DNA of 13,328 nt. Source: an uncultured Clostridiaceae bacterium. GTDB lineage: Bacteria; Bacillota; UBA994; PWPR01. The notes beneath the pieces are model-generated. The model saw nothing but the letters and a program-made list of their open reading frames with translations. It searched no databases and was not told the origin of the DNA. Location of the stretch: the NCBI GenBank assembly GCA_964497955.1, contig CAZCFQ010000050.1, positions 1 through 13,328 of the forward strand, read 5' to 3'. Made by a program: the position numbers and the translations under genes. Below are positions 1 through 13,328 of this stretch, piece after piece (the first letter of the stretch is position 1; each line of letters opens with the position of its first letter).

Positions 1-1289
1 TTTTTAAGAGAAACCTAGCTCCAATTTCAGACCAAGCTTGGACTGAAATCGATGAAAGAGCAGAAGAAGTTATTAACACACAACTAACAACAAGAAAATC
101 TTTAAAAATTAATGGCCCATTTGGATTATCTTATACATCTGTACCAACAGGTCGTTTAGATTTAGTTGAGAATAAATCTTCAAATGTTAAAATTGGATTA
201 TATAATAATAAAAATTTATTAGAAACAAGAATATCATTTGACTTATCAAAATGGGAGTTGGATAATCTATTGAGAGGCGCTAAAGATATTGAATTAGATG
301 CTTTAGAGGAAGCCGCTATGGAAATTGCTCGTTATGAAGATGATGTTATTTATGATTTAAATGAGTTATTCCCAGATGAAAAAGCTAATATGATTGAGCA
401 AAAAATATTAGTAACACCAGGAACAATGTTAAGTCCTTCACAAATAATATTTCAGTTAAGTAGAAGGAAAAGAATTATAAATAAAGTTTATGGCAAGGTT
501 ATGTCTATTGATAAAAATGTGATCAAAATATCCACATTCAAAATCAATAGCGAGCTTAAAGCTTATATTCCTGGAAAAGTAGTTGATACTAACCACAAAG
601 ATTCAATTACGGTTGAAGGAGAAGTATATCAGTTACAAGGAGCTTATGGCCTTGGAGGAGAAAAGCAAGGAAATTTAAAAGTTATAAATGTAAATAGGAA
701 ATTTCAAAAGAGTGACTTAGAAGAAGGTTATAAAAAGAAAATTTTATTTATACCTAATGGGCTTACTCTTGAAGCATTGAAAGCAGCAAATAAGTTAGGT
801 GTTAGTGGAATAATAACCAATGCACTATCTTTTTCTAATGTTAAAAATTTTGCAGGTATTGATTTTGTTCCAGGAATTACTGGCAATGAATCGATTAATA
901 CAACATTACTTTTAGTTAAAGGATTTATAGATCAGCCAATCGAGAAAGAAATAGTTGAGTTTGTAAATGATTATGAAGGTAAATGGGTTTCAATGCGTGG
1001 GACAACACATATAAGAGCTGGTGCAATAAGGCCGGAATTAATAATGTCTCCAGAAGATAACATAAAGAGAGATTTTCAGTTCTTAGAAGATGAAATAGCA
1101 GAAGGAAAAACAGTAGAAATAAAGAGAAGTGGAAAAATGCATGGTAAAAAAGGAACTTTAGTTAAAATACATAGCAAACCAGAGAAGCTGCCATCATTGA
1201 TTAAAGTATTAGTTGCAACTGTAGATATAGATGGAAAAGAAGTTACTGTTCCACTTACTAATCTAGTACCAGCAGGGAGGTTAGATTAA
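1..1289 (+). CDS. Chimeric protein, 5'-partial, ~429 codons in window. The N-terminal ~118 aa are a family-1 encapsulin (linocin M18/CFP29) shell-protein fragment. They are fused in-frame to an uncharacterised ~310-aa C-terminal region. The frame is open from the window edge, first full codon at nt 3.
   Basis: Own translation from nt 3 gives FKRNLAPISDQAWTEIDERAEEVINTQLTTRKSLKINGPFGLSYTSVPTGRLD...NVKIGLYNNKNLLETRISFDLSKWELDNLLRGAKDIELDALEEAAMEIARYEDDVIYD. This aligns motif-for-motif with the Thermotoga maritima and Mycobacterium tuberculosis encapsulin N-termini (LAPxxxxxWxEID, GRL, RxxFTLxxxExDxxxRG, EAAxKxAxxEDxxIF). After ...YEDDVIYD the sequence (LNELFPDEKANMIEQ...KVLVATVDIDGKEVTVPLTNLVPAGRLD) shows no encapsulin A-domain or C-terminal motifs (GPYxLVLxxD, RGGDFxLxxGQD, ETxTF). 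The ORF track's 258..1289 is this frame from its first TTG; no stop lies upstream. The stop TAA 1287-1289 overlaps the next gene's ATG. Confidence 0.75.
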   Translation, partial: FKRNLAPISDQAWTEIDERAEEVINTQLTTRKSLKINGPFGLSYTSVPTGRLDLVENKSSNVKIGLYNNKNLLETRISFDLSKWELDNLLRGAKDIELDALEEAAMEIARYEDDVIYDLNELFPDEKANMIEQKILVTPGTMLSPSQIIFQLSRRKRIINKVYGKVMSIDKNVIKISTFKINSELKAYIPGKVVDTNHKDSITVEGEVYQLQGAYGLGGEKQGNLKVINVNRKFQKSDLEEGYKKKILFIPNGLTLEALKAANKLGVSGIITNALSFSNVKNFAGIDFVPGITGNESINTTLLLVKGFIDQPIEKEIVEFVNDYEGKWVSMRGTTHIRAGAIRPELIMSPEDNIKRDFQFLEDEIAEGKTVEIKRSGKMHGKKGTLVKIHSKPEKLPSLIKVLVATVDIDGKEVTVPLTNLVPAGRLD

Positions 1290-2284
1290 TGGAATCAACA
1301 AGAGTTTTTCTAAGAGGTTTAGATGCACGAATGGCTATTGAGAAATATGATGGACCTTTATATAATGCTTTATTTCCAAGGGCTTTAAGATACATGTGTA
1401 AGTGGGAAACAGGAGAAAAAGAAGATTTTGAAACAATGGAAGAATGGTTATGGATGAATAATATTGTTGAAGCAGAAAATGGTGTTACTTATCCTAAAGT
1501 ACCTATACTAACCGCAGGTTTAGCAAGTGAAATTAAGAAAAAAATTGATAAAACTTTTTCCAATAAAGATTATTGCATAGATAAAATTAAGAGAATATCA
1601 AAACAATTTGATAATTGGGAAGAAGTTGGACGTAATTTTGTTTCTCAAATAATTATAGGAGTATTATGGCTAAATGCATGGATGAAATCTAGTGATAATC
1701 CATGTGATCCAGCAGCTTTGATAATAACAGATTTAGATTTGAGTCCAGTATTCATGTCAGGTATTTCACCGCTTAAAGGTAATGAGATAATATCATATTG
1801 GCAAACTAACCAGTTAGGACATCCTGATACTTTGCATGACATATTAAATAATAGGGCAGTTGTTAAATCTTTAGAATCGATTAAAGATGATTATACATTT
1901 AATTCTGTAGAAAACACACTTGTTTTACTAAATAAGTTGAAAATGTATAAGACAAAAACTGGAGATGCTAATATACCAGTACCTTATATTAACTTGCCAA
2001 AAATAAGTCTTGATGATGTTAAAACTAGTCATGATGAATTGGTTGATTTAGCGAGTAATTTTTTAGATAAGATTGATAAGTTAGATCATATAGCTAAAGC
2101 ATTTTATGAGAATAGACCAGCTATTTTGAAAAAAGTTGATTATTATAATTATAGAAATATGGTTTTTCTTGTCTATAGTTATTGTTCTATAGAAAAGTAT
2201 CTAAATGCTGGTGTCTTTGTTGAAGGTAAGCTAGCAAAGGATACTAAAAGTAAAAAGTCTAATCCAAAATGGACAATGCTATAA
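1289..2284 (+). CDS. Hypothetical protein, 331 aa. No family recognised. Predicted soluble. Translationally coupled to the upstream chimeric gene.
   Basis: The ATG at 1289 overlaps the upstream stop (TAATG). GGGAGG at 1275-1280 sits 8 nt upstream. It is a long uninterrupted ORF with coding-like composition. No motifs I can assign (contains ...SDNPCDPAA..., several Trp). Confidence 0.7.
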   Translation: MESTRVFLRGLDARMAIEKYDGPLYNALFPRALRYMCKWETGEKEDFETMEEWLWMNNIVEAENGVTYPKVPILTAGLASEIKKKIDKTFSNKDYCIDKIKRISKQFDNWEEVGRNFVSQIIIGVLWLNAWMKSSDNPCDPAALIITDLDLSPVFMSGISPLKGNEIISYWQTNQLGHPDTLHDILNNRAVVKSLESIKDDYTFNSVENTLVLLNKLKMYKTKTGDANIPVPYINLPKISLDDVKTSHDELVDLASNFLDKIDKLDHIAKAFYENRPAILKKVDYYNYRNMVFLVYSYCSIEKYLNAGVFVEGKLAKDTKSKKSNPKWTML

Positions 2285-2300
2285 TAGGGAGGTTATACAA

Positions 2301-2450
2301 ATGGGATTTTTTGATAAAATAAAAGAAATTTTTATAGGAAAACCTGTAACAGGGGTAGCCATCATTACTGATGTAGAAGAAGTAGAGAGTTATCTAGAAC
2401 AAATTGTAGATGAGACTATAAAAAAGAAAAATCAGGATAATAACCAGTGA
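2301..2450 (+). CDS. Small hypothetical protein, 49 aa, acidic (MGFFDKIKEIFIGKPVTGVAIITDVEEVESYLEQIVDETIKKKNQDNNQ).
   Basis: Not in the supplied ORF track (below its size cut-off) but seen in the sequence. ATG at 2301 is preceded by GGGAGG (2287-2292) with an 8-nt spacer, the same SD arrangement as the upstream gene. It lies 16 nt after the upstream stop and 21 nt before the EamA start. Confidence 0.5.
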   Translation: MGFFDKIKEIFIGKPVTGVAIITDVEEVESYLEQIVDETIKKKNQDNNQ

Positions 2451-2471
2451 ATTTAGAAAGTAGAGATTTAT

Positions 2472-3383
2472 TTGATAAAAGAATATAAACCATATTTGTC
2501 AGGCCTTATATATGCATCTATATTTGGCCTGTCCTTTATGGTTACAAAAAATGTTTTAAATTTTATAGAACCGTTTCATTTTTTAGGTTTAAGATTCTTA
2601 GCTGCAACAATATTAATGAGTTTATTAATATTCTTTAAAGTTATTAAAGTAGATTATAAAAAAAAGAGTATAAAGCCAATCTTAATGTTATCTATACTTC
2701 AACCAGTTATATATTTTACAGGAGAAATATATGGGGTGAAGAATATAACATCCTCACAAGCAGGTATGATGATTGCTTTGATACCAATTTTTGTTACTAT
2801 ATTAAGCGCAATTATTCTTAAAGAGTATGTAAATTTTCGTCAACTAATTTGCATTATATGTTCTGTTTTGGGAGTTATGTTAATTACCATAATGCAAAGT
2901 GGAGTAAATGGAGAAAGTAAACTAATTGGTTATTTTTTTATTTTAGCAGCTGTTTTAGCAGGAGCAGGATTTAGTGTATCATCTAGAAAACTATCTGTAG
3001 ATTATAAACCATTTGAGCTAACGTATATAATGATGATTGTGGGAGCTGTTTTTTTTAATATATTAGGAGTTTCACAAGTTGGCTTTGAAACATACTTCTT
3101 ACCTTTAAGTAATATTGATGTTTTACAAGCGTTAATATATCTAGCTTTTTTGTCCTCAATAATTGCTTTCGGTTTAATGAATTATACATTATCAAAAATA
3201 CCAGCTGCAAGAGCGGCACTATTTGCTAACTTAACAACAATTATATCTATTATTGCTGGTGTTGTTTTAAGAGGCGAGCCATTTTTCTGGTTTCATTTAA
3301 TTGGGGGATCAATGATATTATTTGGTGTAATTGGAGTTAACAGATTTGCTAATAAAAAAACAGTTGATTATTTTAAGAAATAA
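2472..3383 (+). CDS. EamA/DMT-superfamily (drug/metabolite transporter) permease, 303 aa, ~10 TM segments.
   Basis: Highly hydrophobic throughout, with two repeated 5-TM halves typical of EamA domains (LSGLIYASIFGLSFMVTK... / ...FILAAVLAGAGFSVSSRKL...). TTG start. Co-directional with the three upstream genes, separated from the last by a 21-nt gap. Confidence 0.8.
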   Translation: MIKEYKPYLSGLIYASIFGLSFMVTKNVLNFIEPFHFLGLRFLAATILMSLLIFFKVIKVDYKKKSIKPILMLSILQPVIYFTGEIYGVKNITSSQAGMMIALIPIFVTILSAIILKEYVNFRQLICIICSVLGVMLITIMQSGVNGESKLIGYFFILAAVLAGAGFSVSSRKLSVDYKPFELTYIMMIVGAVFFNILGVSQVGFETYFLPLSNIDVLQALIYLAFLSSIIAFGLMNYTLSKIPAARAALFANLTTIISIIAGVVLRGEPFFWFHLIGGSMILFGVIGVNRFANKKTVDYFKK

Positions 3384-3975
3384 TCAACTTTATTCCAAAA
3401 TATACTAGAATAATAGCAGATGCTTTATTAAGAATAATTTGTATATTTGAGTTTATTAAATTTTTACTATAAGAAACAACAAGAGACAAAATACTAAACC
3501 ATAAAAGTGAAGAGATTGAAAATCCTACTATAAAGAATGACCTGGATATTGAAGAAGTGAAAGAAGAGTACATGCTCCCCAATATTACTGAACCATCAAG
3601 TAAGGCTTGAGGGTTTAGCCAAGTTATCGCAAATGGAGTTAAAATAAGCTTTGATCTATTTAGGGTTTTGTCAGAGCTAGTATCTTTTGGCTTAGTGTTC
3701 CAGATATTATATGAAACTATTAAAATTGCAAAAAACCCTAAATATGATATATATGATGATAAAGATGAAAATTTTGTAATCAATCTTCCAATGCCTAAAA
3801 AACAAAACACAGCGAGACTAATATCATTTACAATTGTTAGAAAAACTGTTATTAGAAGTTCTTTCTTTGTATAGTTGATAGAACTATTAATTATGTACAT
3901 ATTTTGCATTCCAATGGGTGCCACATAAGCAAAACCCATTAATAATCCCTGAAATAGTATATTCAAATTAATCAC
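3373..3975 (-). CDS. LysE/ArgO (RhtB-superfamily) amino-acid exporter, 200 aa.
   Basis: The N-terminus ILFQGLLMGFAYVAPIGMQNMYII aligns with E. coli ArgO [24 protein letters not shown] and C. glutamicum LysE ITGLLLGASLLLSIGPQNVLVI. ITWLNPQALLDGSVILGS matches the ArgO TWLNPHVYLDTFVVLGS motif. GTG start at 3975. The 3' end overlaps the convergent EamA gene by 11 nt. Confidence 0.8.
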   Translation of the reverse strand: MINLNILFQGLLMGFAYVAPIGMQNMYIINSSINYTKKELLITVFLTIVNDISLAVFCFLGIGRLITKFSSLSSYISYLGFFAILIVSYNIWNTKPKDTSSDKTLNRSKLILTPFAITWLNPQALLDGSVILGSMYSSFTSSISRSFFIVGFSISSLLWFSILSLVVSYSKNLINSNIQIILNKASAIILVYFGIKLIIS

Positions 3976-3980
3976 CTGAA

Positions 3981-3993
3981 ATGTATTATACCA
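3981..3993. promoter_or_regulatory. Face-to-face overlapping extended -10 elements in the divergent LysE / PLP-enzyme intergenic region. TGtATTATA reads on the + strand and TGgTATAAT on the - strand, forming a partial palindrome TGTATTATACCA.
   Basis: Read directly from the sequence. The - strand TGGTATAAT lies only ~9 nt upstream of the LysE GTG, giving a near-leaderless transcript. The + strand element lies ~35-40 nt upstream of the ORF5 ATG (RBS AGAGGAAAA). No experimental support. Confidence 0.3.
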
Positions 3994-4029
3994 AAATAAT
4001 TTAATATTTAATAAGAAAAGAGGAAAAAA

Positions 4030-5160
4030 ATGAATTTTAAAAGCGTTAGGGAAATTGCTCCAATGGTTAACAAAGTATCTTATTTAGAAACACCTGCTAG
4101 AGGATTGAATCTAAAGCCAATAGTACAAAATTCCATAAATGCTATAACTGGTTGGGAAACATTCGATGAAGAAATTAGTAATGCAAAACTTAGAAAAGAA
4201 GTAAATGAAAAACTATCAAATCTATTAAAAGTTAGTGCTAATAATGTTACTTGTACTAATTGTACTTCTCATGGATTGAGTATTATTGCTAACTCTTTTC
4301 CATTTGAGAAAGGTGACAATATTATTATGTCAGAATCAGAACATCCAAATAACTTTTATCCATGGGCACAATTAAAAAATAAAGGCATAGATATTAGAAT
4401 AGCAAAGTCAAAAAATGGTTTTATTGACTTTGACAATATTGCTGACTTAGTAGACGAAAAGACAAAAATAATAGCTTTGTCATTAGTCAGTTTTTATCCT
4501 GGGTCATATAATGATGTTAAAATTTTAAAAGAAAAGATAAACAATAATAATGTATTTATTGTTTTGGATGTCATACAAGCACTTGGCTTTTTACCAATTT
4601 ATCCAGAAGAACTTGGTGTAGATGCAATAGCTTCTGCTTCATACAAAGGTCTTATGAGCCCTCACGGTGGCGGTATCCTATACGTTAGTGATAAACTGCT
4701 AAGTTTATTGGCACCTGATGAAGTAACTATGTTAAACGTATCAGATAGGTCTTTATTTCCTGTTTTAGATTATACTCTAATTGAATCAGCTGATAAGTTG
4801 CAGCCAATGCCAATTAATGTAGCACAATTAGCTTCTATGAGTGCTGCATTAGATATTATTTTAGATTTAGGTATAGAAAATATAGGAAAATATTTAAATG
4901 AGTTAGCTAGAAAAATGGTAGATGATTTAAATAATGTGGGTGTTAAAACAAAATTATCAAGTAATGATGATAGGCTTAAGCATATAGTATGTTTTGATGA
5001 AGAAAAAAATAAAGAATTAGCTCAATATGCAAAAGAAAATGGTGTATACATTAGTCCTAGAAGAACAGGAATACGAATGGGATTTCATATTTACAATAAC
5101 TTTGAAGATGTAGATAAAGCAGTGAAGGTAATAGATAAGTTTTATAAAAACAATAAGTAA
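4030..5160 (+). CDS. Aminotransferase class-V-fold PLP-dependent enzyme with SufS/CsdA-like architecture. It lacks the cysteine-desulfurase catalytic Cys. 376 aa.
   Basis: GDNIIMSESEHPNNFYPWAQL...EKTKIIALSLVSFYPGSYNDV...VFIVLDVIQALGFLPIYPEELGVDAIASASYKGLMSPHGGGILYVS aligns with SufS [21 protein letters not shown]...[21 protein letters not shown]...[40 protein letters not shown]. The PLP-Lys is retained (SASYK). The C-terminal RTGIRMGFHIYN replaces the SufS RTGHHCA loop, so there is no Cys. Confidence 0.75.
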   Translation: MNFKSVREIAPMVNKVSYLETPARGLNLKPIVQNSINAITGWETFDEEISNAKLRKEVNEKLSNLLKVSANNVTCTNCTSHGLSIIANSFPFEKGDNIIMSESEHPNNFYPWAQLKNKGIDIRIAKSKNGFIDFDNIADLVDEKTKIIALSLVSFYPGSYNDVKILKEKINNNNVFIVLDVIQALGFLPIYPEELGVDAIASASYKGLMSPHGGGILYVSDKLLSLLAPDEVTMLNVSDRSLFPVLDYTLIESADKLQPMPINVAQLASMSAALDIILDLGIENIGKYLNELARKMVDDLNNVGVKTKLSSNDDRLKHIVCFDEEKNKELAQYAKENGVYISPRRTGIRMGFHIYNNFEDVDKAVKVIDKFYKNNK

Positions 5161-12920: not shown

Positions 12921-12926
12921 ATAAAC

Positions 12927-12958
12927 AAGTCAGCCATGAGCTGACTTATTTTTTATTG
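12927..12958 (+). terminator. Rho-independent terminator after the MATE gene.
   Basis: AAGTCAGC-catga-GCTGACTT perfect 8-bp stem followed by ATTTTTTATTG. Confidence 0.7.
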
Positions 12959-13080: not shown

Positions 13081-13328
13081 GTGTACTTAGATGATCTAAA
13101 TAAGGAGCAACGAGAAGCAGTTATTTATGACAAAGGGCCACTACTAATTTTAGCTGGTGCTGGGAGCGGGAAGACAAGAACAATTATATATCGTGTTGCA
13201 CATCTAATAAAACAAGGTGTTTCTCCATATGAAATCTTAGTTATGACTTTTACTAACAAAGCTGCTAATGAAATGAAAGAGAGAGTTCGCGGTATTTTAG
13301 ATTTAAAATTCCCAGGAATGTGGATAGG
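13081..13328 (+). CDS. pcrA: ATP-dependent DNA helicase PcrA/UvrD, N-terminal 82 codons. It runs off the 3' window edge.
   Basis: [69 protein letters not shown] carries the canonical UvrD/PcrA motifs: LNxEQxxAV, Walker A GAGSGKT, TFTNKAAxEMxER. GTG start with AAGGAGG (13067-13073) 7 nt upstream. Confidence 0.8.

What the first reader, a model, noticed from the sequence alone, without database searches (positions are those of the whole stretch)
1..1289. Family-1 encapsulin N-terminal fragment fused in-frame to an unrelated ~310-aa C-terminal region
The first ~118 residues are an unmistakable family-1 encapsulin N-terminus: N-terminal helix, E-loop and spine-helix motifs all line up with the T. 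maritima and M. tuberculosis encapsulins. The similarity stops after ...ARYEDDVIYD. The remaining ~310 residues (LNELFPDEKANMIEQ...GAYGLGGEKQG...ILFIPNGLTLEALKAANKLGVSGIIT...KVLVATVDIDGKEVTVPLTNLVPAGRLD) have none of the A-domain or C-terminal P-domain motifs. They are about twice the length of what they replace.

This does not look like a simple frameshift pseudogene. The frame stays open for ~430 codons with coding-like composition. The two alternative forward frames hit stops immediately after the break point (TGA 353-355, TAA 358-360). The gene ends in a TAATG-coupled overlap with the next gene.

Known encapsulin families are complete HK97 folds (families 1-3) or A-domain-only (family 4). 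I am not aware of an N-arm + E-loop + spine-helix-only fusion. In family-1 shells the N-terminal helix and P-domain form the pocket that binds cargo-loading peptides. A protein keeping only that part could be a cargo-peptide-binding or shell-docking module rather than a shell former. That last point is inference.
Basis: partly seen in the sequence, partly recalled or inferred. Interest (0 to 1): 0.75.

Follow-up and report, generated by a model that had tools for sequence, protein, structure and literature searches.

The report
One-off chimeric encapsulin hybrid at contig end
The open reading frame really does join the first 40% of an encapsulin shell gene to the last 70% of an unrelated gene, but the join is found on this contig alone, sits 353 bases from the contig end, and is most likely a chimeric artefact or a recent gene-breaking rearrangement, not a new kind of protein.

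Summary
Window 3-1289 is one open frame. Residues 2-118 are a family-1 encapsulin N-terminus (Pfam Linocin_M18 positions 5-121 of 253, E 1e-35), and the remaining 310 residues are unrelated to it.

Both parents can be identified. The 5' part is 93% (aa) / 87% (nt) identical to intact 264-aa encapsulins, which always sit in an opp-EncFtn-encapsulin-FBPase context. The 3' part is residues ~125-435 of a conserved 435-aa protein with a barrel-sandwich N-domain, a swivelling beta/beta/alpha domain and a KOW/SH3 C-domain. In syntenic relatives this protein is intact and follows a MutL-like ATPase gene.

The two sequences meet in an 18-nt stretch (336-353, GAAGATGATGTTATTTAT = EDDVIY) that both gene families encode in the same frame. 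That is why the frame stays open.

The window is a whole 13,328-bp contig, so the encapsulin piece is only its terminal 353 nt. None of 159 family representatives carries an encapsulin N-terminus. A ~99%-identical strain has the intact gene. No other assembly contains the junction.

Structure models show no HK97 completion.

Verdict: a one-off chimera. Artefact ~0.55, real recent non-functional rearrangement ~0.35, functional novel fusion ~0.05. Low interest.

The parts
1..335 (+). 5' part of a family-1 (EncFtn-type) encapsulin gene, from codon 3 to the spine helix. It is cut at its 5' side by the end of the contig.
   Evidence: Pfam Linocin_M18 positions 5-121/253, E 1e-35. NCBIfam encap_f1. 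93% aa identity to the intact 264-aa encapsulin P0179. 86.9% nt identity to its gene over window 3-353. 34 synonymous against 7 non-synonymous codon differences. Contig length equals window length.
336..353 (+). Junction interval: GAAGATGATGTTATTTAT (E-D-D-V-I-Y), a stretch encoded in the same frame by both parental gene families. The crossover lies somewhere inside it.
   Evidence: Codon-level comparison with the encapsulin relatives L005 and L012 (FEDDVIY-NG) and the parent-B relatives L002 and L003 (SEDDVVY-DLN). Synteny with L002 starts at 336. Encapsulin identity ends at 353.
354..1289 (+). 3' 72% (equivalent to residues ~125-435) of a conserved, unnamed 435-aa protein. The retained parts are a linker helix, small beta domains, a swivelling beta/beta/alpha domain and a KOW/SH3-like C-terminal domain. 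Its barrel-sandwich N-domain is missing.
1289..2284 (+). Translationally coupled 331-aa gene of unknown function. It is the conserved downstream partner of the 435-aa gene.
   Evidence: Same gene with the same TAATG overlap in L002, L003 and L010. No Pfam or NCBIfam hit.
2301..2450 (+). Conserved 49-aa ORF that closes the cassette (MGFFDKIKEI...VEEVE.YLE.IVDE).
   Evidence: Called in L001, L002, L003, L007 and L010, and the peptides align by eye. The exact protein is in NCBI, JGI and ENA on 5 contigs.

Best explanation
The ORF is a one-off hybrid with no evolutionary standing. The first ~117 codons come from an ordinary EncFtn-associated family-1 encapsulin gene. The last ~310 codons come from an ordinary 435-aa gene encoding a barrel-sandwich, swivelling-domain and KOW protein, the second gene of a conserved cassette (MutL-like ATPase, 435 aa, 331 aa, 49 aa) next to the hut operon. 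The two are joined inside an 18-nt stretch that both genes happen to encode identically (EDDV[I/V]Y), which makes the product in-frame by construction. The encapsulin piece is only the terminal 353 nt of a 13.3-kb metagenome-assembled contig, roughly the length of one sequencing-library fragment, and nothing else supports the junction. I therefore take it to be most likely a chimeric contig end: an in-vitro template-switch or chimeric fragment, or an assembler extension, at a low-coverage or strain-variable fork. On this reading it is not a gene that exists in the cell. What is shown: the parentage of both halves, the junction interval, the position at the contig end, the absence of the architecture elsewhere, and the intact gene in a near-identical strain. 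What is inferred: that the join arose outside the cell.
For: 1. The window equals the whole contig: proteins of this window are on record on an NCBI contig of 13,328 bp. The junction is therefore 336-353 nt from a contig end.
2. Syntenic relatives L002 (82% aa in this protein), L003/L004 (75%) and the complete genome CP063353 (L010, 55%) all have hut genes, a MutL-like gene of 596-599 aa, then an intact 433-435-aa gene, a 331-aa gene and a 47-49-aa gene. In L002, L003 and L004 these are followed by the same gene order as the window (EamA, LysE, aminotransferase and so on); in L010 a different set of genes follows the cassette. No encapsulin is present in any of them.
3. P0012, from run SRR6056297, carries the intact barrel-sandwich N-terminus. 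It is 53/55 identical to the window across and after the junction. The same run has the 331-aa gene at 243/245 identity.
4. The nearest encapsulins (P0179 93%, P0180 90%, P0173 89%) are all full-length at 264 aa. P0179, looked up on five contigs, sits each time in an opp, EncFtn, encapsulin, FBPase_2 context as far as those contigs reach.
5. phmmer of the encapsulin fragment against 159 representatives of the C-terminal family gives 0 hits at E<=10. The family's natural N-terminal fusions are to MutL (P0058, P0170).
6. No junction was found elsewhere. Exact-pattern scans of viral, JGI metagenome and GTDB genome collections gave 0 hits. The guessed full-length hybrid is absent from 15 billion proteins. 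Independent assemblies of the same strain (99.9% nt) stop at window 372 or 981.
7. The fragment shows 34 synonymous against 7 non-synonymous codon differences to an intact encapsulin gene. It was therefore part of a selected, intact gene until very recently.
8. The hybrid loses residues that are >=90% conserved across 150 family representatives (R10, G16, V26, G67). It also loses more than half of the HK97 fold.
Against: The shared stretch is at most 18 nt. With the closest known parent-B allele, which has Val instead of Ile, the exact identity would be only 12+5 nt. That is shorter than the k-1 of 20 or more that de Bruijn assemblers need, so a purely k-mer-driven misjoin is not expected. A physical chimeric molecule, formed in vitro or in vivo, is needed. 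GC content (0.307 against 0.307), tetranucleotide correlation (r = 0.96) and codon fit of the encapsulin piece are indistinguishable from the rest of the contig. The two parents could therefore lie in one genome, which is compatible with a real rearrangement. Two other assemblies break near the junction: L007 starts at window 372, and P0012's partial product ends at about window 503. That would also be expected if a real structural polymorphism existed there. No reads were available, so the artefact itself is not demonstrated.
Confidence: 0.55

Rival explanations
1. A genuine but recent, strain-specific genome rearrangement: a microhomology-mediated deletion or inversion between the encapsulin locus and the MutL-cassette locus of one genome. 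It destroys both genes and leaves an in-frame but non-functional hybrid ORF, in effect a pseudogene that has not yet decayed.
For: The join at a 5-18-nt microhomology is typical of illegitimate recombination and too short for k-mer misassembly. Composition and codon usage of both parts are indistinguishable. Contig breaks recur around 372-503 in other assemblies of the strain, compatible with a polymorphic fork. A relative (L005/L006) shows that this encapsulin operon decays in the lineage: it has an N-terminal deletion plus an in-frame TAA.
Against: There is no independent contig or protein with the junction. The contig stops 353 nt past the join instead of continuing into EncFtn. Labels that submitters gave the nearest relatives differ: Izemoplasmatales/Bacillota for the encapsulin, Clostridia for the backbone. 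A deletion would have to remove more than 18 kb including the hut operon, because no encapsulin lies within 10 kb upstream in relatives and no hut/MutL genes lie within 8 kb downstream of the related encapsulins.
Confidence: 0.35
2. A functional new fusion protein. The encapsulin N-helix, E-loop and spine helix act as a cargo-peptide-binding or shell-docking module tethered to the swivelling/KOW module.
For: The junction falls at domain boundaries in both parents. In the encapsulin it is the end of the spine helix at profile position 121/253. In the 435-aa protein it is the low-confidence linker around residues 111-120 after the barrel-sandwich domain. The frame is open, and the coupling to the downstream gene is kept.
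Against: The architecture occurs nowhere else. The retained encapsulin piece is not an autonomous domain, because the P-domain sheet needs C-terminal strands that are absent. In the AlphaFold2 model of the hybrid it is poorly predicted (pLDDT 26-69 over residues 1-120), while the C-terminal domains stay confident. Only four encapsulin sequences were in that alignment, so this point is weak. Foldseek aligns encapsulins over only ~120 columns, TM 0.13-0.22. The open frame is explained by the shared hexapeptide. Conserved N-terminal residues of the partner family are lost.
Confidence: 0.05
3. A complete but highly divergent encapsulin whose A and P domains are unrecognisable by sequence.
For: None beyond the N-terminal match.
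Confidence: 0.01

Closest known systems
Family 1 (classical) encapsulin shell protein, EncFtn-associated operon type (Pfam PF04454 Linocin_M18; NCBIfam NF041155). Classification as in Andreas & Giessen 2021, PMC8346489.
   Same: Residues 2-118 are a bona fide family-1 N-terminus. They are 93% identical to the intact 264-aa encapsulin P0179, whose gene follows an EncFtn-like gene.
   Different: Only profile positions 5-121 of 253 are present. The A-domain and the C-terminal part of the P-domain are absent from all six frames of the contig. The cargo gene cannot be seen because the contig ends.
Family 4 'A-domain' encapsulins (PF08967), the only described truncated HK97 derivative (PMC8346489).
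   Same: Both would be partial HK97 folds.
   Different: Family 4 keeps the A-domain, an autonomous domain, and is conserved in operons across Thermococci. Here the A-domain is exactly what is missing, and the architecture is not conserved anywhere.
Unnamed family of ~370-450-aa proteins (barrel-sandwich N-domain, swivelling beta/beta/alpha domain, KOW/SH3 C-domain) encoded next to, or fused to, MutL-like ASKHA ATPases (PF13941).
   Same: Window residues 112-428 align end to end with residues ~119-435 of P0001-P0009. They keep the invariant core (A194, G198, Q219-G220, G223, G225, G230, R345-A346-G347, R350-P351-E352, N427). The 331-aa and 49-aa downstream partners are kept.
   Different: The barrel-sandwich N-domain (residues 1-~113 of P0001, with conserved R10, G16, V26, G67) and the upstream MutL-like gene are replaced by encapsulin sequence.
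Chimeric contig ends and microhomology-mediated chimeras in metagenome assemblies (general knowledge, not a tool result).
   Same: A short foreign segment at the very end of a contig, joined at a short shared sequence, with no support from other assemblies.
   Different: 18 nt is shorter than the usual assembler k. A physical chimeric molecule, not a graph error, would be required. This was not demonstrated here.

Membership tests
Family 1 encapsulin shell protein | Complete HK97 fold (N-helix, P-domain, E-loop, A-domain) in a protein of ~260-300 aa that matches the whole Linocin_M18 / encap_f1 model | tested here: not met
   Only profile positions 5-121 of 253 (Pfam) and 2-118 of 261 (NCBIfam) match. 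No further encapsulin-like sequence is found in any frame of the window. Foldseek aligns encapsulins over only ~120 columns, TM 0.13-0.22.
Family 1 encapsulin shell protein | Adjacent cargo gene with a targeting peptide (here expected to be EncFtn immediately upstream) | not testable with these tools
   The contig begins in codon 3 of the encapsulin sequence. Relatives L012-L016 and L005/L006 have EncFtn-like (PF22277) directly upstream.
Family 1 encapsulin shell protein | Self-assembly into an icosahedral shell | not testable with these tools
   This needs experiment. From established HK97 structural knowledge, assembly is implausible without the A-domain, which forms the five-fold contacts (PMC8346489).
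Family 4 A-domain encapsulin | Consists of the HK97 A-domain (PF08967) | tested here: not met
   No PF08967 hit. The retained part is the N-terminal part of the encapsulin up to profile position 121, before the A-domain.
MutL-associated barrel-sandwich/swivel/KOW protein family (unnamed) | Conserved central and C-terminal domains with the invariant core motifs | tested here: met
   100% query coverage and 82-49% identity to P0001-P0009. Invariant columns are kept in alignments A2 and A3.
MutL-associated barrel-sandwich/swivel/KOW protein family (unnamed) | N-terminal barrel-sandwich hybrid domain (R10, G16, V26, G67 conserved in at least 90% of 150 representatives) | tested here: not met
   [not shown]
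MutL-associated barrel-sandwich/swivel/KOW protein family (unnamed) | Gene neighbourhood: a MutL-like (PF13941) gene directly upstream, and 331-aa and ~48-aa genes downstream | tested here: inconclusive
   The downstream half is met. The upstream half is absent on this contig, where encapsulin sequence stands in its place and the contig then ends.

The most novel reading that the evidence does not exclude
The junction is real in the cell, and the hybrid is expressed from the EncFtn-encapsulin operon. The N-helix, E-loop and spine helix of an encapsulin would then be tethered to a swivelling-domain/KOW module, giving a protein that binds EncFtn targeting peptides or intercalates into (or poisons) encapsulin shells. 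That would be a first example of an HK97 N-terminal fragment reused as a module.
Probability: 0.05. Interest if true: 0.5.

Novelty: not a real feature. Interest (0 to 1): 0.1.

Why it matters
Taken at face value it would be a fifth kind of encapsulin-derived architecture. The evidence instead shows a singleton junction at a contig end between two ordinary genes. Its practical value is as a caution: an open, in-frame, compositionally smooth fusion can arise trivially when two genes share a short peptide-coding stretch, and contig-terminal fusions in metagenome-assembled genomes need read-level support before they are interpreted. The only substantive lead is incidental. The partner gene belongs to a large family (about 3,000 representatives at 50% identity) that matches no Pfam or NCBIfam family model above its cutoff and is linked to MutL-like ATPases.

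Tried and rejected
1. Frameshift pseudogene. Rejected: the other frames stop at once, and no encapsulin remainder is found anywhere in the contig.

2. Divergent but complete encapsulin. Rejected by homology of the C-terminal part to a different family and by the fold searches.

3. Conserved architecture. Rejected.

4. Search for independent copies of the junction. An exact 38-mer on the encapsulin side was scanned against viral, JGI-metagenome and GTDB-genome collections. A degenerate 57-mer just after the junction was scanned against JGI metagenomes. All gave 0 hits. The source contig itself is not in those collections, so the negatives are weak.

5. The search for related loci with the 118-aa fragment in GTDB genomes found no relatives.

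6. The first protein search with the 118-aa fragment returned only 4 hits of 75% identity or less. This was a limit of the word index: a later search with a longer relative found 93%-identical full-length encapsulins.

7. Composition tests (GC, tetranucleotides, codon fit), used to decide whether both halves come from one genome, were uninformative. Both lineages are ~31% GC.

8. Look-up of P0012's contig: not on record.

9. Literature search for truncated or pseudogenised encapsulin fusions returned nothing relevant.

Full report
**1. Observation**

The frame starting at window nt 3 runs open for 428 codons to the TAA at 1287-1289.

hmmscan places residues 2-118 on Pfam Linocin_M18 positions 5-121 of 253 (E 1.2e-35). 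It also places them on NCBIfam encap_f1 positions 2-118 of 261 (E 6.9e-32). Nothing significant matches residues 119-428. tblastn with three encapsulins finds encapsulin-like coding sequence only at 3-362 in the whole window. The description is therefore correct.

**2. What the C-terminal 310 residues are**

A search of 5.8 billion protein clusters with residues 119-428 returned 13 proteins. The close ones (P0001-P0004 and P0006-P0009, 82-49% identity, 98-100% query coverage) are 433-459 aa long. Their own first ~125 residues are not encapsulin. They form a barrel-sandwich hybrid domain, seen as weak Biotin_lipoyl, RnfC_N and NQRA_N hits.

The alignment shows the window protein matching them continuously from ...EDDV(I/V)YDLNELFP... 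to the C-terminus, and not at all before that point.

An AlphaFold2 model of P0001 (pLDDT 82) has four parts:
- an N-terminal beta domain (residues 1-113);
- a low-confidence linker (~111-120);
- further beta domains and an alpha/beta domain (~250-355);
- a small C-terminal barrel.

- NqrA/RnfC N-terminal barrel-sandwich domains;
- the swivelling beta/beta/alpha domain of PEP-utilising enzymes, RraA, aconitase X and the diol-dehydratase reactivase;
- KOW/SH3 domains (Spt5, NusG, NdhS).

No HK97-fold protein is among the top 60 matches.

A profile search of 1.84 billion representatives finds 2980 relatives at E<=1e-3. This is a large family, and none of the members scanned reaches the cutoff of any Pfam or NCBIfam family model.

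**3. Genomic context of that family**

The locus looks the same in the syntenic relatives L002 (JGI), L003 (GCA_046542315.1), L004 and the complete genome CP063353 (L010). The order is hut genes, a MutL-like ASKHA ATPase (PF13941, 596-599 aa), the intact 433-435-aa gene, a 331-332-aa gene and a 47-49-aa gene.

In L002, L003 and L004 this is followed by exactly the window's gene order: EamA, LysE, class-V aminotransferase, beta-eliminating lyase, S9 peptidase, EVE, amidohydrolase, GAF. In L010 the genes after the cassette differ.

Nucleotide synteny with the window starts at window 336 (L002) or 332 (L003) and runs to about 11,300. Two representatives (P0058, P0170) are natural fusions of MutL to this family. 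The family's native partner is therefore the MutL-like ATPase, not an encapsulin.

**4. What the N-terminal part is**

A search seeded with a relative's encapsulin recovered many full-length 264-aa family-1 encapsulins. P0179 is 93% identical to window residues 1-118, P0180 90% and P0173 89%.

P0179's gene lies in a constant context on five contigs, as far as each contig reaches: opp ABC transporter, DUF3899, a 211-aa gene, EncFtn-like, encapsulin, class-3 FBPase. The more distant relative in L005/L006 sits in the same context.

At the DNA level, window 3-353 is 86.9% identical to the P0179 gene. Identity falls to 28% from nt 354 on. Codon differences are 34 synonymous against 7 non-synonymous. 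The fragment therefore comes from a gene that was under purifying selection as an intact encapsulin until very recently.

**5. The junction**

The codon-level comparison reads as follows:
- window: ...GCT CGT TAT | GAA GAT GAT GTT ATT TAT | GAT TTA AAT...
- encapsulin relatives: ...CGT TTT GAA GA(T/C) GAT GT(T/C) ATC TAT AAC GGT...
- relatives of the 435-aa gene: ...AAT TCA GAA GAT GAT GTT GTC TAT GAT CTT AAT...

Both gene families encode E-D-D-V-(I/V)-Y in the same frame. The crossover lies within window 336-353. This alone explains why the hybrid is in frame and why the composition is smooth. The open frame is thus not evidence for selection.

**6. Is the join a real gene?**

- *Position on the contig.* Exact look-ups show that proteins of this window are on record on an NCBI contig of 13,328 bp, which is the window length. 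The window is therefore a whole contig, and the encapsulin piece is its terminal 353 nt.
- *A near-identical strain.* P0012, from run SRR6056297, has the intact barrel-sandwich N-terminus. It is 53/55 identical to the window across and beyond the junction.
- *Other assemblies of the same strain.* L007 (ENA) covers window 372-4115 at 99.92% identity. L001 (JGI) covers 981-4115 at 99.90%. Neither contains the junction.
- *Database scans.* Pattern scans of three collections found no copy of the junction. The guessed full-length hybrid is absent from 15 billion proteins.
- *Family survey.* None of 159 family representatives has any similarity to the encapsulin fragment.

The architecture is therefore a singleton.

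**7. Artefact or rearrangement?**

Several points favour an artefact. The join is at a contig end. The foreign segment is about the length of one library fragment. There is no independent support, and a near-identical strain has the intact gene. The labels that submitters gave the nearest relatives also differ: Izemoplasmatales/Bacillota for the encapsulin, Clostridia for the backbone.

Other points weigh against a simple assembler error and keep a real event possible. The shared stretch is at most 18 nt, and only 12+5 nt with the closest known allele, which has Val for Ile. That is below the usual k, so a physical chimeric molecule is needed. Composition, tetranucleotide pattern and codon fit of the two parts are indistinguishable (GC 0.307 against 0.307, r = 0.96; codon log-likelihood -0.78, within the range of the contig's own genes). 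Two other assemblies break close to the junction. However, L001 and L007 also both break at window 4115, where nothing chimeric occurs, so such breaks are also produced by ordinary strain heterogeneity.

My estimates are 0.55 for an artefact, 0.35 for a real but recent and gene-destroying rearrangement, and 0.05 for a functional fusion.

**8. Would the hybrid work?**

The retained encapsulin part (N-helix, first P-domain strand, E-loop, spine helix) is not an autonomous domain. From established HK97 structural knowledge, the P-domain sheet is completed by C-terminal strands and the A-domain makes the capsomer contacts. Both are missing.

In an AlphaFold2 model of the hybrid, residues 1-120 have pLDDT 26-69, while the C-terminal domains remain confident. 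One caveat applies: only four encapsulin sequences were in that alignment. Foldseek aligns solved encapsulins over only ~120 columns, with TM 0.13-0.22.

On the other side, the hybrid lacks the barrel-sandwich domain with residues conserved in at least 90% of 150 representatives (R10, G16, V26, G67). It also lacks the upstream MutL-like partner.

The junction does fall at domain boundaries in both parents. That is the only point in favour of a viable fusion.

**9. Comparison with known kinds**

Encapsulins are classified into families 1-3, which have complete HK97 folds, and family 4, which is the A-domain only (PF08967) (PMC8346489). The window ORF fails the defining feature of family 1 (a complete fold) and of family 4 (the A-domain). 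It also lacks any conservation that would justify a new family. It is best described as a chimeric junction between a family-1 encapsulin gene and a gene of the MutL-associated barrel-sandwich/swivel/KOW family.

**10. Verdict**

The interpretation as a new encapsulin-derived module is not supported. Interest is low (0.1). Read-level evidence would settle whether the join is an artefact or a rearrangement, but neither outcome would make it more than a broken pair of ordinary genes unless expression and binding were also shown.

Noticed in passing
[not shown]
   Followed up: partly
window 2301-2450 (+): A 49-aa ORF (MGFFDKIKEIFIGKPVTGVAIITDVEEVESYLEQIVDE...) lies below the 60-aa ORF cutoff. It is conserved in L001, L002, L003, L007 and L010, and the exact protein is present on 5 contigs in NCBI, JGI and ENA.
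   Followed up: partly
L005 3239-4211 and L006 2954-3926: The EncFtn-encapsulin operon of a relative (75% aa identity) is decayed in two independent JGI samples. The first ~47 encapsulin codons are missing, with the EncFtn 3' end running into the gene in another frame. An in-frame TAA replaces the Tyr of ...EDDVIY..., the same codon at which the window's junction lies. Probably coincidence; not explained.
   Followed up: partly
window 372, 981 and 4115: Independent assemblies of the same strain (L007 from ENA MEGAHIT, L001 from JGI; 99.9% nt identity) both end exactly at window 4115, inside the aminotransferase gene. L007 begins at 372, 18 nt after the junction interval. Recurrent graph forks suggest co-existing strain variants at these points.
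   Followed up: partly
window 3-356 (tool behaviour): The word-indexed protein search with the 118-aa fragment returned only 4 hits of 75% identity or less, although 93%-identical full-length encapsulins are in the same database. Negative results from that tool with short queries should not be trusted.
   Followed up: yes
window ~12923-12955 and ~13085-13328 (+): Read by eye from the sequence printed and not tested with any tool. There is a hairpin plus T-run after the MATE gene (AAGTCAGCCATGAGCTGACTTATTTTTT). A partial ORF runs off the 3' end and begins [34 protein letters not shown]..., which looks like the start of a UvrD/PcrA-type helicase.
   Followed up: no
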